Below, in pieces: positions 3,178-13,281 of a DNA stretch of 32,000 nucleotides. Every line of letters begins with the position of its first letter. The first letter of the stretch is position 1. Below the pieces are notes generated by a model, which was given only the letters and a program-made list of their open reading frames with translations, searched no databases and was not told the origin of the DNA. The stretch covers positions 1,920,001 to 1,952,000 of the forward strand of contig NC_014148.1 in NCBI RefSeq assembly GCF_000092105.1, written 5' to 3'. The position numbers and the translations under genes are program-made. The stretch is from Planctopirus limnophila DSM 3776. Lineage in GTDB: Bacteria; Planctomycetota; Planctomycetia; Planctomycetales; Planctomycetaceae.

Positions 3178-4185
3178 TTAACGAGTGAAAATGGATTGTC
3201 GCTGGTACCCATTTTCCTGCGACTGAACCGATGTGTCCACGGGTTTCACGGCAATAAATGTTTCATGAACTGCAGCACCAATTTTATTGAGTTTCGTCTG
3301 CAGTAGATCAAGAAATTCATGCAAGCCCTGCTGAATCACATCGTCCACCGTGGTATAGGCCAGTTCGGATCGCAGTTGGCCGACGCGCTGTTCTGCTGAG
3401 TTGCGGAACGTATCCATGGGCGTACCCGAAATTGCATGCAAGGCATGTTCGACACCGGTGACCGAATAATTGATCGCCCGCGGGAAATGGCGATCCAGAA
3501 TCAGGAATTGAGCGACTTTCGATGGCGTGATCGCATGGAATTGTTTCGAGTACATTTCCATGGCACTGACAGATCTCAAGACCGCTTGCCACTGCAGGTC
3601 ATCTGTGGGCGAGCCCACATCATGGACTGTCGGCAACAGGAGGTAATACTTCACGTCCAGAATTCGTGAGGTTTTGTCGGCACGCTCAAGCAAACGCCCC
3701 AACCGACTGAAGTTCCATCCTTCCCCTCGGGACATTGTGGCATCCGTGATTCCTTTGAAGAGATGCGAAGCCTGCTTGATCTCCTGGAAAAAATCGAGAG
3801 GAGACGCCTTGATGCGATCGTTTGCCGAAGCTTCCCGCACCATGTAGTAGAACAGATTCAACTGCTCCCACATCTCGCTGGAGATCGTCTCACGAACAGA
3901 GCGGGCATTCTCTCGGGCAAATTTGACGCACGAACGGATCGAGCCGGGATAGTCCTGGTCGAAGGCGAGAAACTCAATCACGCTGCTCTGATTCGCATCG
4001 CCATACTTCTCACGAAAGTACTCATGGTCACCTGTCGTATAGACCAGTGGCGCCCACGCATTCTGATGAGACTGCGGTAAATCGAGCATTAAATTAAAAG
4101 TCACGTCCATGAATCGTGCCAGGTTTTCAGCACGTTCAATGTATCGACTCATCCAATAGATCGCGTCGGCAACACGGCTGAGCAT
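3178..4185 (-). CDS. Alpha-E domain protein (COG2307, formerly DUF403), stand-alone
   Basis: 335 aa. The N-terminus [25 protein letters not shown] is the signature opening helix of the Alpha-E family. It is all-helical in character, lies immediately downstream of a CP ATP-grasp gene, and is paralogous to the C-terminal half of ORF 6842..9535. Confidence 0.85.
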   Translation of the reverse strand: [335 protein letters not shown]

Positions 4186-4289
4186 TCCAGTTCTTCCGGC
4201 AAGCGTTCAAGTTGTAAAATAGGCTCTGAAAATACTAAAGGTGAGTCTCATCGTTTGCTGAGTGGGTCATGGAGACCCTGAATCTGCCC

Positions 4290-12700: not shown

Positions 12701-13281
12701 AGGTGCCTCAGAATATGAACCAGCAGCCACGCAGAATCCCGGCAGGAACCCGATCGTTTAGTTAAGGTCTCTTCTGGAGACTGAACGCCATGTTCGAGGC
12801 GGATGACGTAGCAGATGTCTCGATGAAGCTGACGGTTCAGTTCAACCAGAAAATCAATCGTTCTCTGTGGCTTTTGATCGACAGTTTCAATGTAGGCCTT
12901 GAGAGCTGGAGTCGCTGTGGGAACCGCCAGATAGGCTGCCAGTTCCGATTTGAGCCATGGTTCGTAGATGAACGGAAATTGCTCGGCGTACTCTTCGAGG
13001 AAAAAGTCAAACGGATTGATGACTGTCATGTCGGCAATCAGGTCGACGCTCACACTGAATTCTGTGGTCTGTTTGGGGAAAACCAGACGTGCCAGAAAGT
13101 TGCCGTGAGGATCCTGCTGCCAGTTCAGATAATGGTCTTTGGGCTCAATTTTGAGCGAATAGGAAACAATTGGTGTCCGGCAATGAGGCGCCGGTCTGAG
13201 CCGCACAATATGCGGGGCCATCGATACCAATCGATCGTAGGTGTAGACAGTTTTGTGATGAAGAGCGACACGGATCGTCAT
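9715..13281 (-). CDS. Large transglutaminase family protein: Bact_transglu_N, transglutaminase core, low-complexity linker, and a DUF2126-type (putative amidoligase) C-terminal region
   Basis: 1188 aa. The N-terminus is MTIRVALHHKTVYTYDRLVSMAPHIVRLRPAPH. The triad context is Cys180 in RSGSCRDSAW (codon 12742..12744 checked), His229 in TDLHAWTEVY and Asp245 in WVGLDPTS. The ~500-aa C-terminal region (RTALIVEPRDGRMFVFLPP...GGGNHVVLGG...FRGFEMPPHARM...) matches what I remember of DUF2126 proteins. This architecture typically precedes an ATP-grasp/Alpha-E fusion gene. Confidence 0.85.
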   Translation of the reverse strand: MTIRVALHHKTVYTYDRLVSMAPHIVRLRPAPHCRTPIVSYSLKIEPKDHYLNWQQDPHGNFLARLVFPKQTTEFSVSVDLIADMTVINPFDFFLEEYAEQFPFIYEPWLKSELAAYLAVPTATPALKAYIETVDQKPQRTIDFLVELNRQLHRDICYVIRLEHGVQSPEETLTKRSGSCRDSAWLLVHILRHLGYAARFASGYLLQLTPDVKALDGPSGAEYDFTDLHAWTEVYLPGAGWVGLDPTSGLLCGEGHIPLACTPEPGSAAPITGAIDPCETKFHFEMEVVRVHEDPRVTKPYTDEQWQRIMRLGNDVDRHLNAADVRLTMGGEPTFVSIDDMEGDEWNTAAIGPTKRMRADVLSRRIRERFANGALIHYGQGKWYPGEPLPRWAFTLISRKDGLPVWRDRNLMADETTKYDFDFADARRFIELLAKNLEVTTSTIVDGYEDVAYYAMREMRLPINVDVFDNKLKDKQERERIVRLFERGLGKPTGCVLPLRRNRWNSTPHWVTAEWPVRRDQFYLLPGDSAMGFRLPLDSLPYISDERLGRLVDRDPLEPLPPLPVPKALRRAAQAMIPATPIGVASTSGANLWSAQNLGEAAQDRPSTEHWGFGEGATVSSVARKTLAPGSDGASSLPADRSGVYSGPPSNGHDGHNGSNGNSDSHQDSHWKQPEPFQMNDSWVRTALIVEPRDGRMFVFLPPVETAECFLDLIAAIEETAAELSMPVAVEGYLPPYDPRLLVWKITPDPGVIEVNTPPTETWNDLAELTTGLYDEARLSRLGTEKFMLDGRHSGTGGGNHVVLGGKTPADSPFLRRPDLLRSLITYWNNHPSLSYLFSGLFIGPTSQAPRVDEGRKDTLYELELAFEQIPDHTSVPPWLVDRIFRNLLVDVTGNTHRAEFCIDKLYSPDSSTGRLGLVEFRGFEMPPHARMSLTQQLLIRAIVAWFWEEPYRHPPVHWGTSLHDRFMLPHFLEEDFQCVIGELQNAGFAFENDWFNPHLEFRCQKIGEISLGSVHIEFRTALEPWYVLGEEGAPGGTARYVDSSVERLQVKVKGLTPGRQVLTVNGRRIPLHPTGTESEYVAGIRYRAWQPPSCLHPTIGIHSPLTFDVVDTWLNRSVGGAQYHVVHPGGRGYDVFPVNSYEAESRRMTRFYKMNHTGGAMKLPPEHTNRHFPFTLDLRRPTAPMFM

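What the first reader, a model, noticed from the sequence alone, without database searches (positions are those of the whole stretch)
3178..13281. Ten-kb co-directional array merging two paralogous ATP-grasp / Alpha-E / transglutaminase modules: a predicted peptide-ligase or protein-tagging machinery with unknown substrate
**Seen in sequence.** Five minus-strand ORFs are separated by only 179, 47, 84 and 104 bp.
- A (1188 aa) is a transglutaminase N-domain, then a core with an intact Cys180/His229/Asp245 context, then a DUF2126-type C-terminal region.
- B (897 aa) is a circularly permuted ATP-grasp fused to Alpha-E.
- C (304 aa) is a small transglutaminase with an intact Cys184/His227/Asp243 context.
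- D (501 aa) is a stand-alone CP ATP-grasp, and E (335 aa) is a stand-alone Alpha-E.

Paralogy is visible by eye:
- [38 protein letters not shown] against B WEFDVIPLIIPPDQWQKLARGLSQRAYLLNMIIRDLY.
- E [24 protein letters not shown] against B LPSRVADNMFWVGRFAERAESTARL.
- A MTIRVALHHKTVYTYDR against C MEYRITHTTDYRYTDP.

**Established knowledge.** COG2308 ATP-grasp, COG2307 Alpha-E and COG1305 transglutaminase-like peptidases are conserved neighbours, sometimes with the proteasome-like Anbu. As I recall, comparative genomics by Iyer, Aravind and colleagues (2009) predicted that they form an amidoligase-plus-peptidase system that makes or attaches peptides. To my knowledge no substrate, product or physiological role has been demonstrated.

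**Inference.** Both versions (A-B-C type and D-E type) sit in one putative operon and share a single small transglutaminase. There is no Anbu gene and no obvious small tag ORF. That points to a two-ligase, two-peptidase pathway, for example iterative ATP-dependent peptide or isopeptide synthesis with thiol-peptidase processing.
Basis: partly seen in the sequence, partly recalled or inferred. Interest (0 to 1): 0.78.

Follow-up and report, generated by a model that had tools for sequence, protein, structure and literature searches.

The report
Known-type amidoligase–peptidase gene cluster, function unknown
This is a well-preserved copy, in the planctomycete Planctopirus limnophila, of a widespread five-gene bacterial cluster of ATP-dependent ligases and cysteine-peptidase-like proteins whose substrate nobody has identified; one of its two supposed ATP-grasp ligases has lost its catalytic residues.

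Summary
Five minus-strand ORFs lie at the stated coordinates with gaps of 179/47/84/104 bp, and Pfam confirms every domain call.

- **Catalytic triads:** Cys-His-Asp is intact in A and C and invariant in their homologues.
- **Not an unusual merger:** among 80 loci from reference genomes, A-B-C is intact in 56 of 63 testable cases. A D-E pair lies within 10 kb in 24 of 45 fully flanked loci. The window's order (A-B-C-D-E) is a minority arrangement of a common linkage.
- **Main correction:** B's ATP-grasp domain is degenerate. Residues invariant in 32 D-type proteins (E176, N178, D334, D335, K336, D443) are kept in 0% of 62 B-type proteins. B looks like a pseudo-enzyme scaffold.
- **Second ligase:** it is more likely A's DUF2126 domain. 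Its predicted fold weakly but consistently resembles glutamine synthetase.
- **Alpha-E:** it models confidently but matches no solved structure.
- **Regulation:** proteobacterial homologues carry σ54-type promoters, and published transcriptomes place the system in nitrogen-limitation regulons.

No substrate is known. This is a new member of a known but uncharacterised system, of moderate interest.

The parts
9715..13281 (-). Gene A (1188 aa): transglutaminase-like cysteine peptidase fused to a DUF2126 putative amidoligase. GenBank ADG67329.1.
   Evidence: ORF, Pfam, identity.
13036..13266 (-). A residues 6-82: Bact_transglu_N domain.
   Evidence: Pfam E=8.2e-24.
12544..12888 (-). A residues 132-246: transglutaminase core with C180/H229/D245.
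   Evidence: Pfam E=6.1e-17. Residues verified and invariant in 14 homologues. Weak sequence match to PDB 3ISR, a putative cysteine protease.
9742..12456 (-). A residues 276-1180: DUF2126, the likely glutamine-synthetase-fold COOH-NH2 ligase. It contains a roughly 100-residue variable, low-confidence insert (A residues about 578-680).
   Evidence: Pfam E=0, profile positions 1-826 of 826. AF2 model pLDDT 69.9, pTM 0.74. Top Foldseek PDB hits are GS, GmaS, GshF and Dop, but E is only 0.05-0.7. Invariant Glu/His/Arg residues on predicted strands.
6842..9535 (-). Gene B (897 aa): degenerate, predicted inactive, circularly permuted ATP-grasp fused to Alpha-E.
   Evidence: ORF, Pfam, loss of D-invariant residues.
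8126..9256 (-). B residues 94-470: ATP-grasp-like domain lacking D's E176/N178/R180, D334-D335-K336, Gly-rich GGYG loop and D443.
   Evidence: Alignment of 32 D-type and 62 B-type proteins. Pairwise alignment.
7019..7978 (-). B residues 520-839: Alpha-E domain that keeps the family's conserved SRVA..W..ER.E..R motif.
   Evidence: Pfam E=6e-68. Motif columns invariant in alignment A3, which includes B's domain.
5880..6794 (-). Gene C (304 aa): small transglutaminase-like cysteine peptidase with C184/H227/D243, of the type that follows B.
   Evidence: Pfam. Triad invariant in 56 of 56 homologues. TGases downstream of B score 165-353 bits against C, while the extra TGases beside D-E or after C score 95-167 bits.
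4290..5795 (-). Gene D (501 aa): active-type circularly permuted ATP-grasp ligase. GenBank ADG67326.1.
   Evidence: Pfam E=3.8e-171. E=2e-172 to PDB 3N6X. All family-invariant residues present.
3178..4185 (-). Gene E (335 aa): stand-alone Alpha-E protein, all-helical, with no solved structural relative.
   Evidence: Pfam E=1.3e-104. AF2 pLDDT 87. No Foldseek PDB hit below E=0.27.
13601..13616 (-). Conserved ATGCACGAAAATTGCA element about 320 nt upstream of A. It is a candidate regulatory site that resembles a -24/-12 promoter, with TG in place of GG.
   Evidence: Identical in the 85%-identity relative L082, inside an otherwise poorly conserved spacer. Function not tested.

Best explanation
The five genes form one functional unit built from two paralogous modules, each of the form 'ligase + Alpha-E + thiol peptidase'.

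- **Module 1** is D, a catalytically competent circularly permuted ATP-grasp ligase, together with its helical partner E.
- **Module 2** is A, a transglutaminase-like Cys-His-Asp peptidase fused to a glutamine-synthetase-fold ligase (DUF2126). With it come B, whose ATP-grasp domain has become a non-catalytic scaffold still fused to an intact Alpha-E domain, and C, a second Cys-His-Asp peptidase.

**Proposed mechanism (inferred).** The two active ligases, D and A's C-terminal domain, use ATP to form acyl-phosphates on peptide or protein carboxylates. They then add an amino acid or amine, in a RimK-like way that needs no genetically encoded tag. The transglutaminase-like enzymes cleave or transfer these amide bonds. 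The system is switched on when nitrogen is scarce, to remodel or recycle peptide nitrogen.

**Shown here:** gene anatomy, domain identities, intact versus degenerate residues, and conserved linkage.

**Taken from the literature and from homologues:** regulation by nitrogen limitation.

**Inferred:** the chemistry, the substrate class and the physical complexes.
For: - Domain architecture and paralogy.
- D keeps every residue invariant in 32 D-type proteins and matches the solved 3N6X structure at E=2e-172.
- B-type proteins (n=62) retain 0% of D's invariant E176, N178, D334, D335, K336 and D443, and only 18% of the D-invariant positions in residues 331-501. They do keep the fold-level positions and the Alpha-E motif.
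- DUF2126 is named a putative amidoligase by Pfam. Its model's top PDB fold hits are nearly all glutamine-synthetase-family ligases. It has invariant Glu/His/Arg residues on predicted strands.
- The triads are invariant in A and C homologues.
- Linkage: A-B-C in 56 of 63 loci. D-E is within 10 kb of A in 24 of 45 loci, in three different arrangements, across Planctomycetota, Verrucomicrobiota, Acidobacteriota and Beta/Gammaproteobacteria.
- The same A-B-C-D-E block occurs in an 85%-identity relative whose downstream neighbour differs.
- Nitrogen link: σ54-type -24/-12 motifs lie next to 27 of 71 A starts and 10 of 32 D starts, against 0.018 expected per window.
- The B. cenocepacia D-E-TGase-A cluster is NtrC/σ54-dependent (PMC5491218).
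- P. putida ATP-grasp and Anbu genes are about 4 log2 higher on nitrate than on ammonium (PMC8050072).
- A homologous ATP-grasp releases phosphate from ATP (PMC6376114).
Against: - No substrate or product is known for any member.
- The GS-fold assignment of DUF2126 rests on non-significant Foldseek scores (best E=0.05), and there is no sequence-level link to GS in Pfam or the PDB.
- Equating D's E176-x-N178 and K383/GGYG with the classical ATP-grasp Mg2+/ATP motifs is by analogy, not by structural superposition. No sequence bridge to other ATP-grasp structures was found.
- The window has no canonical σ54 promoter, so nitrogen control in this planctomycete is extrapolated.
- Pull-downs in Yersinia found no stable complexes among the Anbu-operon proteins.
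- A small-molecule substrate is equally compatible with a glutathione-synthetase-like ATP-grasp.
Confidence: 0.45

Rival explanations
1. Small-molecule pathway. The ligases build or catabolise a low-molecular-weight amide, for example a gamma-glutamyl-amine or glutathionylspermidine-like conjugate, as a route for scavenging nitrogen from amines. The transglutaminase-like proteins would act as amidases on that metabolite rather than on proteins.
For: - D's closest solved relative was deposited as a 'putative glutathionylspermidine synthase'.
- DUF2126's best fold hits include gamma-glutamylmethylamide synthetase and a bifunctional glutathione synthetase.
- Homologues belong to nitrogen-limitation regulons alongside urea, nitrate and amine uptake genes, and the domains co-vary with urea-metabolism domains in metagenomes.
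- No tag gene is present.
Against: - Transglutaminase-like domains with the Bact_transglu_N extension, and the proteasome-like Anbu found in sister operons, point to peptide or protein substrates.
- No transporter or other metabolite-pathway gene is conserved next to the cluster in 80 loci.
- Rv2411c and Rv2567 lysates did not make GABA-trehalose, which excludes only that one product.
Confidence: 0.3
2. B and D are both active ATP-grasp ligases that act in sequence, giving iterative peptide synthesis, and DUF2126 is merely an accessory region.
For: B scores strongly against both CP_ATPgrasp Pfam models and is 31% identical to D over 468 residues.
Against: - B-type proteins lack every one of the six charged or polar residues E176, N178, D334, D335, K336 and D443 that are invariant in D-type proteins, and they lack the Gly-rich loop. 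K383 is kept in only 52% of them and is Arg in the window.
- The loss is family-wide (62 sequences), so it is not a sequencing artefact.
- As I recall, the Pfam family description itself says inactive versions are often fused to Alpha-E. This is from memory and was not retrievable here.
Confidence: 0.07
3. Two unrelated systems that merely happen to be neighbours. A-B-C and D-E would work independently, and their adjacency in this genome would carry no functional meaning.
For: - In many lineages the two units are divergently transcribed or separated by an unrelated gene, such as ComEC in Comamonadaceae. Each then has its own σ54-type promoter.
- Twenty of 45 fully flanked loci have no D-E within 10 kb.
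Against: - Linkage recurs in 24 of 45 loci across at least four phyla or classes. It survives rearrangement into three different arrangements, which is the signature of selection for proximity.
- Both units carry the same promoter type.
- In B. cenocepacia, D, E, a small TGase and the large A-type protein are co-regulated as one cluster.
- Linked D-E pairs usually lack a TGase gene of their own.
Confidence: 0.1

Closest known systems
ATP-grasp / Alpha-E / transglutaminase / Anbu operon (COG2308-COG2307-COG1305-Anbu), predicted by Valas & Bourne 2008 and Iyer et al. 2009 and studied in Yersinia, Pseudomonas and Hyphomicrobium
   Same: D, E and a transglutaminase-like protein are the same families. 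D is a close homologue of the solved family member 3N6X. Homologues are likewise induced by nitrogen limitation. The function is equally unknown.
   Different: The window has no Anbu gene. No transglutaminase gene follows E; the small TGase lies upstream of D and is of the type that belongs with A-B. D-E here is appended to the A-B-C triad.
DUF2126 triad: large transglutaminase-DUF2126 protein, ATP-grasp-Alpha-E fusion and small transglutaminase. As I recall, M. tuberculosis Rv2566, Rv2567 and Rv2569c are an example, and B. cenocepacia BCAM1236 (I35_5083) is a large A-type protein.
   Same: A, B and C have identical architecture and order. This arrangement is found in 56 of 63 reference loci. 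B. cenocepacia carries D-E-TGase-large TGase as one NtrC-regulated cluster.
   Different: D-E lies downstream of C here. Among loci where D-E is linked, it is usually upstream of A, either co-directional or divergent. Only 3 of 45 fully flanked loci, plus the close relative L082, share the window's order.
Pupylation (PafA ligase and Dop deamidase, both glutamine-synthetase-fold, plus the proteasome)
   Same: A possible GS-fold ligase works beside peptidases. Dop appears among DUF2126's weak fold hits (rank 41). As I recall, pupylation also has a physiological link to nitrogen starvation.
   Different: No Pup-like tag gene, no proteasome, and no significant sequence or fold match. The ligase is fused to a transglutaminase-like domain. 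An ATP-grasp module is present.
RimK-type ATP-grasp ligases (addition of amino acids to a protein C-terminus without an encoded tag)
   Same: An ATP-grasp ligase that needs no genetically encoded tag. This is a mechanistic analogy for D.
   Different: D is circularly permuted, belongs to a different family, and has an obligate Alpha-E neighbour. No RimK similarity was detected.

Membership tests
ATP-grasp / Alpha-E / transglutaminase (Anbu-type) system | Circularly permuted ATP-grasp (PF04174/PF14403) with the family's invariant residues | tested here: met
   D has Pfam E=3.8e-171, all 143 D-family invariant positions, and E=2e-172 to 3N6X.
ATP-grasp / Alpha-E / transglutaminase (Anbu-type) system | Alpha-E protein encoded immediately after the ATP-grasp | tested here: met
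   E lies 104 bp downstream of D, with Pfam E=1.3e-104.
ATP-grasp / Alpha-E / transglutaminase (Anbu-type) system | Transglutaminase-like protein with a Cys-His-Asp triad in the same cluster | tested here: met
   C and the N-terminus of A. The gene order differs: the TGase precedes D.
ATP-grasp / Alpha-E / transglutaminase (Anbu-type) system | Anbu (proteasome beta-like Ntn hydrolase) as the fourth gene | tested here: not met
   No proteasome-family hit among the window ORFs scanned, and none in L013 or L033. Anbu is frequent in this system but not universal.
DUF2126 triad (A-B-C) | Large protein with Bact_transglu_N, Transglut_core and full-length DUF2126 | tested here: met
   The same architecture is seen in all 120 listed homologues.
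DUF2126 triad (A-B-C) | Followed by an ATP-grasp-Alpha-E fusion and then a small transglutaminase | tested here: met
   Window and 56 of 63 loci.
Catalytically active ATP-grasp ligases | B retains the Mg2+/ATP-binding residues that are invariant in the active paralogue family | tested here: not met
   E176, N178, D334, D335, K336 and D443 are retained in 0% of 62 B-type proteins, and the Gly-rich loop is lost. Mapping these to classical ATP-grasp motifs is by analogy only.
Glutamine-synthetase-fold COOH-NH2 ligases (GS, GCS2, PafA/Dop) | DUF2126 adopts the GS catalytic fold | tested here: inconclusive
   Most of the top 50 Foldseek PDB hits are GS-family ligases, but the best E is 0.05 and TM-scores are at most 0.32. 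The model pLDDT is only 69.9. There is no sequence-level hit.
Ubiquitin-like or Pup-like protein-tagging systems | A small tag protein encoded in or beside the cluster | tested here: not met
   No gap ORF is conserved between the window and L082. No small family recurs beyond one lineage in 80 loci.
σ54/NtrC nitrogen-limitation regulon | A -24/-12 (GG-N10-GC) promoter upstream of the unit | tested here: inconclusive
   Met in many homologues (27 of 71 A starts and 10 of 32 D starts). The window has no canonical site, only a conserved TG-variant element at 13601-13616.
Anti-phage defence systems | A match to known defence protein models | tested here: not met
   No PADLOC hit for any of the five proteins.

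The most novel reading that the evidence does not exclude
The cluster could be a tag-less functional analogue of pupylation for bacteria that lack a proteasome. Under nitrogen starvation, D-E and the GS-like domain of A would mark protein carboxylates with amino acids. The transglutaminase-like peptidases of A and C would then read or erase the marks or degrade the targets. B, a pseudo-ATP-grasp fused to Alpha-E, would serve as the substrate-selecting scaffold, with Alpha-E being a previously unseen fold dedicated to this task.
Probability: 0.15. Interest if true: 0.8.

Novelty: new member of a known kind. Interest (0 to 1): 0.35.

Why it matters
These families are among the most widespread bacterial enzyme systems that still have no known substrate. 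Searches with A and with E each reached the 8000-candidate scoring cap, and members occur in pathogens such as M. tuberculosis, Burkholderia and Pseudomonas.

This window does not solve that problem, but the analysis sharpens how to attack it:
- D and the DUF2126 domain of A are the proteins to assay for ligase activity.
- B should be treated as a scaffold, not an enzyme.
- Nitrogen limitation is the condition under which to look for products.
- Alpha-E, which models confidently but matches nothing in the PDB, is a good target for structure determination.

Tried and rejected
- **NCBIfam:** no hit for any of the five proteins.
- **Rfam and tRNA scans of the window:** nothing found.
- **Iyer et al. 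2009 (PMC3268129):** not held in the library. Statements about its content come second-hand from papers that cite it or from my memory, and are marked as such.
- **2026 preprint naming Rv2567 and Rv2411c:** it used them only as candidates that failed to make GABA-trehalose.
- **Sequence bridges that failed:** D-family profile to other ATP-grasp structures; DUF2126 to GS-like families in Pfam and in the PDB.
- **Alpha-E fold search:** only noise.
- **Canonical σ54 promoter in the window:** none upstream of A or D.
- **Intrinsic terminators:** none in the four gaps. The scan is crude, and overall it found fewer sites than in shuffled sequence.
- **Extra conserved partner genes in 80 loci:** mostly lineage-specific synteny, such as ComEC, RidA-like and NTP_transf_6 in Comamonadaceae. 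The one cross-lineage accessory is Peptidase_Mx, which is absent from the window.
- **Apparent D+E fusion in L081:** rejected as a probable frameshift, because E's own Met-Leu-Ser-Arg-Val start is present in frame.
- **Defence-system reading:** rejected.
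Full report
**Observation.** Pfam confirms every domain:
- A: Bact_transglu_N, Transglut_core and a full-length DUF2126 (E=0).
- B: CP_ATPgrasp_1/2 and Alpha-E.
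- C: Bact_transglu_N and Transglut_core.
- D: CP_ATPgrasp_1/2.
- E: Alpha-E.

NCBIfam has no model for any of them. The paralogy seen by eye is real. B-grasp vs D is 31% identical over 468 residues (E=2e-85). B-AlphaE vs E is 21% (E=2e-12). A-TGase vs C is 32% (E=5e-16). The quoted triad positions are correct. They are invariant in A homologues and in 56 of 56 C homologues. The sequence is from Planctopirus limnophila DSM 3776. There the genes are already deposited as 'transglutaminase domain protein' and 'protein of unknown function DUF404'.

**Surroundings.** The flanking genes are unrelated. On one side is a PAS/HAMP histidine kinase. On the other are a sulfatase, a PTA_PTB enzyme, an enoyl-CoA hydratase, a HEAT-repeat protein, an Hsp70, a glutaminase and an MFS transporter. 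No Anbu-like ORF was found among the window ORFs scanned, and no tRNA or Rfam element. A relative with 85% identity in protein A (L082) has the same A-B-C-D-E block and the same upstream neighbours. After E, however, it has a Ser/Thr kinase instead of the histidine kinase, so the unit ends at E. Intergenic sequence is poorly conserved between the two, and no gap ORF is shared.

**Is the merger special? No.** I fetched 80 loci encoding A homologues from reference genomes of many phyla. I then classified their ORFs against the window's domains.
- A-B-C is intact in 56 of 63 loci with at least 4 kb downstream of A.
- Among 45 loci with full flanks, 24 have a D-E pair within 10 kb.
  - 11 have D-E upstream of A on the opposite strand. 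In some it abuts A; in Comamonadaceae an unrelated ComEC gene lies between them.
  - 10 are co-directional upstream (D-E-A-B-C), including most planctomycete and verrucomicrobial cases.
  - 3 are downstream, as in the window.
- A few loci carry a third small transglutaminase after E or after C, but most, like the window, do not.

So the five-gene association is a common, rearrangement-tolerant linkage. The window shows a minority gene order of it. The B. cenocepacia cluster I35_5080-83 (DUF404/407, DUF403, a TGase and a large TGase protein) is a published example that is co-regulated as one unit.

**Which proteins are enzymes?** D is 60% identical over about 464 residues to PDB 3N6X (E=2e-172), a structural-genomics entry with no demonstrated activity. 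Aligning 32 D-type and 62 B-type ATP-grasp domains gives 143 positions that are at least 95% conserved in D-type proteins. B-type proteins keep 56% of those in residues 1-330 but only 18% in residues 331-501.
- The residues E176, N178, D334, D335, K336 and D443 are retained in 0% of B-type sequences.
- R180 and N474-Q477 are retained in about 2%.
- K383 is retained in 52% and is Arg in the window.
- The G389-G-Y-G392 loop is gone.

From established knowledge of ATP-grasp enzymes, D's 'LEDNxRxPSG' resembles the Mg2+-binding E-x-N..PG motif of D-Ala-D-Ala ligase. 'VVKxxxESGGYG' resembles the ATP-binding Lys plus flexible Gly-rich loop. This mapping is an inference: no sequence bridge to a characterised ATP-grasp structure was found. 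B therefore looks like a pseudo-enzyme. Its Alpha-E half, in contrast, keeps the invariant S-R-V-A..W..E-R-x-E..R and E-R..T motifs shared with E. As I recall, the Pfam text for CP_ATPgrasp_1 itself says inactive versions are often fused to Alpha-E. I could not retrieve that text here.

**DUF2126.** Pfam calls it a putative amidoligase. An AF2 model of A residues 276-1188 reached pLDDT 69.9 and pTM 0.74, with a disordered insert of about 100 residues. Its Foldseek hits in the PDB are dominated by glutamine synthetases, gamma-glutamylmethylamide synthetase, GshF and Dop. The scores are not significant, however: the best E is 0.05, probabilities are at most 0.90 and TM-scores at most 0.32. Neither Pfam nor PDB sequence searches link it to GS. 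Invariant Glu, His, Arg and Asn residues sit on predicted strands, as expected for a metal- and ATP-dependent carboxylate-amine ligase. These are E332, E387, E754, N756, H801, R898, E900, E920, R922 and E925 in A numbering. I therefore rate 'GS-fold ligase' as likely but not shown.

**Alpha-E.** E models confidently (pLDDT 87) as a bundle of about 16 helices. It has no PDB match, with a best E of 0.27 and TM-scores below 0.3, and no sequence relative of solved structure.

**Regulation and physiology.** No intrinsic-terminator-like site falls in the four gaps. That is compatible with one transcript but is weak evidence. In the related loci, strong σ54-type -24/-12 motifs (at least 10 of 11 consensus positions, with GG-N10-GC) lie next to the starts of 27 of 71 A homologues and 10 of 32 D homologues. 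About 0.018 would be expected per 600-bp window, and 41 of all 87 such motifs in 1.47 Mb are in these positions. This matches published data:
- NtrC/σ54 dependence of the B. cenocepacia cluster.
- About 4 log2 higher expression of P. putida PP_2688 (ATP-grasp) and PP_2685 (Anbu) on nitrate than on ammonium.
- Anbu induction under nitrogen limitation, cited in the structural papers.
- Co-variation of these domains with urea-metabolism domains in marine metagenomes.

The window itself has no canonical σ54 site. The only strongly conserved upstream block shared with L082 is ATGCACGAAAATTGCA at 13601-13616. It resembles the consensus but has TG instead of GG. Nitrogen control in Planctopirus is therefore an extrapolation.

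**Best explanation.** The cluster consists of two paralogous 'ligase + Alpha-E + thiol-peptidase' modules that work together. D with E is the first. A (TGase + GS-like ligase) with B (pseudo-grasp + Alpha-E) and C is the second. In the second module the catalytic role of the ATP-grasp appears to have been taken over by the DUF2126 ligase. I consider this architectural reading well supported (about 0.8).

The chemistry is inferred from family knowledge. It would be ATP-dependent acyl-phosphate formation and amide ligation on peptide or protein carboxylates, with cleavage or transfer by the Cys-His-Asp enzymes, deployed under nitrogen limitation. The substrate class is open. I put peptide or protein substrates slightly ahead of a small-molecule amide (about 0.45 vs 0.3). 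The reasons are the transglutaminase-like domains, the Anbu association in sister operons and the lack of conserved transporter or metabolite genes. The literature held here reports no substrate. The only biochemical facts are phosphate release from ATP by the Yersinia ATP-grasp, with no stable complexes detected, and a negative result for GABA-trehalose synthesis by Rv2411c and Rv2567.

**Comparison and novelty.** The cluster belongs to the system predicted by Valas & Bourne (2008) and Iyer et al. (2009), as summarised. It combines the Anbu-type D-E pair, without Anbu, with the DUF2126 triad. It is a new, already annotated member of a known but functionally uncharacterised kind, in a less common gene order. 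It fails the membership tests for tag-based systems (no tag) and for defence systems. I score it 0.35. The useful outcomes are the corrected assignment of the likely enzymes, the quantified linkage, and the promoter evidence pointing to nitrogen limitation.

Noticed in passing
window 13601-13616 (minus strand): ATGCACGAAAATTGCA lies about 320 nt upstream of A's start. It is identical in the 85%-identity relative L082, inside an otherwise poorly conserved spacer. It resembles a σ54 -24/-12 element, with TG in place of the usual GG.
   Followed up: partly
L002-L081, upstream of A and D homologues: Strong σ54-type promoter motifs sit next to 27 of 71 A starts and 10 of 32 D starts, about 20-fold above background. 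This implies separate but co-regulated transcription units in Proteobacteria.
   Followed up: yes
L012, L017, L039, L046, L047, L049, L053, L074, L078: A Peptidase_Mx plus zinc-ribbon (Zn_ribbon_DZR_6) metallopeptidase gene lies near the cluster (within about 5 kb of a family gene) in nine loci from diverse lineages (Planctomycetota, Bacteroidota and Alpha-, Beta- and Gammaproteobacteria). It may be an accessory component. It is absent from the window.
   Followed up: partly
window 21314-22435 (+) and 22521-24128 (+): A glutaminase gene followed by an MFS transporter lies about 8 kb from A, and the arrangement is syntenic in L082. A link to nitrogen metabolism is possible but may be coincidental.
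   Followed up: no
window 25656-26999 (-) and 26962-28578 (-): An AbgT-family transporter ORF overlaps an M20/M28-type peptidase ORF by 38 nt. This looks like an aminobenzoyl-glutamate or dipeptide utilisation pair.
   Followed up: no
L081 16932-19553: An apparent single ORF fuses an active-type D to E. The D part diverges after residue ~473 and E's own Met-Leu-Ser-Arg-Val start is in frame, so a frameshift in a long-read MAG is more likely than a true fusion. A is also split into two ORFs in this locus.
   Followed up: partly
L013 7447-8939: In this planctomycete MAG the D homologue is split into two adjacent ORFs. This is either a frameshift or a pseudogene.
   Followed up: no
window about 11242-11550 (A residues ~578-680): A has a variable insert inside DUF2126 with very low model confidence. 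It largely explains why A is about 75 residues longer than most homologues.
   Followed up: no
L015, L033, L069 (after E); L027, L042 (after C): Some loci carry an extra, third small transglutaminase gene. It scores lower against C than the B-linked TGases do, so it looks like a distinct D-E-type TGase. The window lacks it.
   Followed up: partly
window 28644-30506 (-): A CitMHS-type transporter with two internal TrkA_C domains. It is unrelated to the finding.
   Followed up: no
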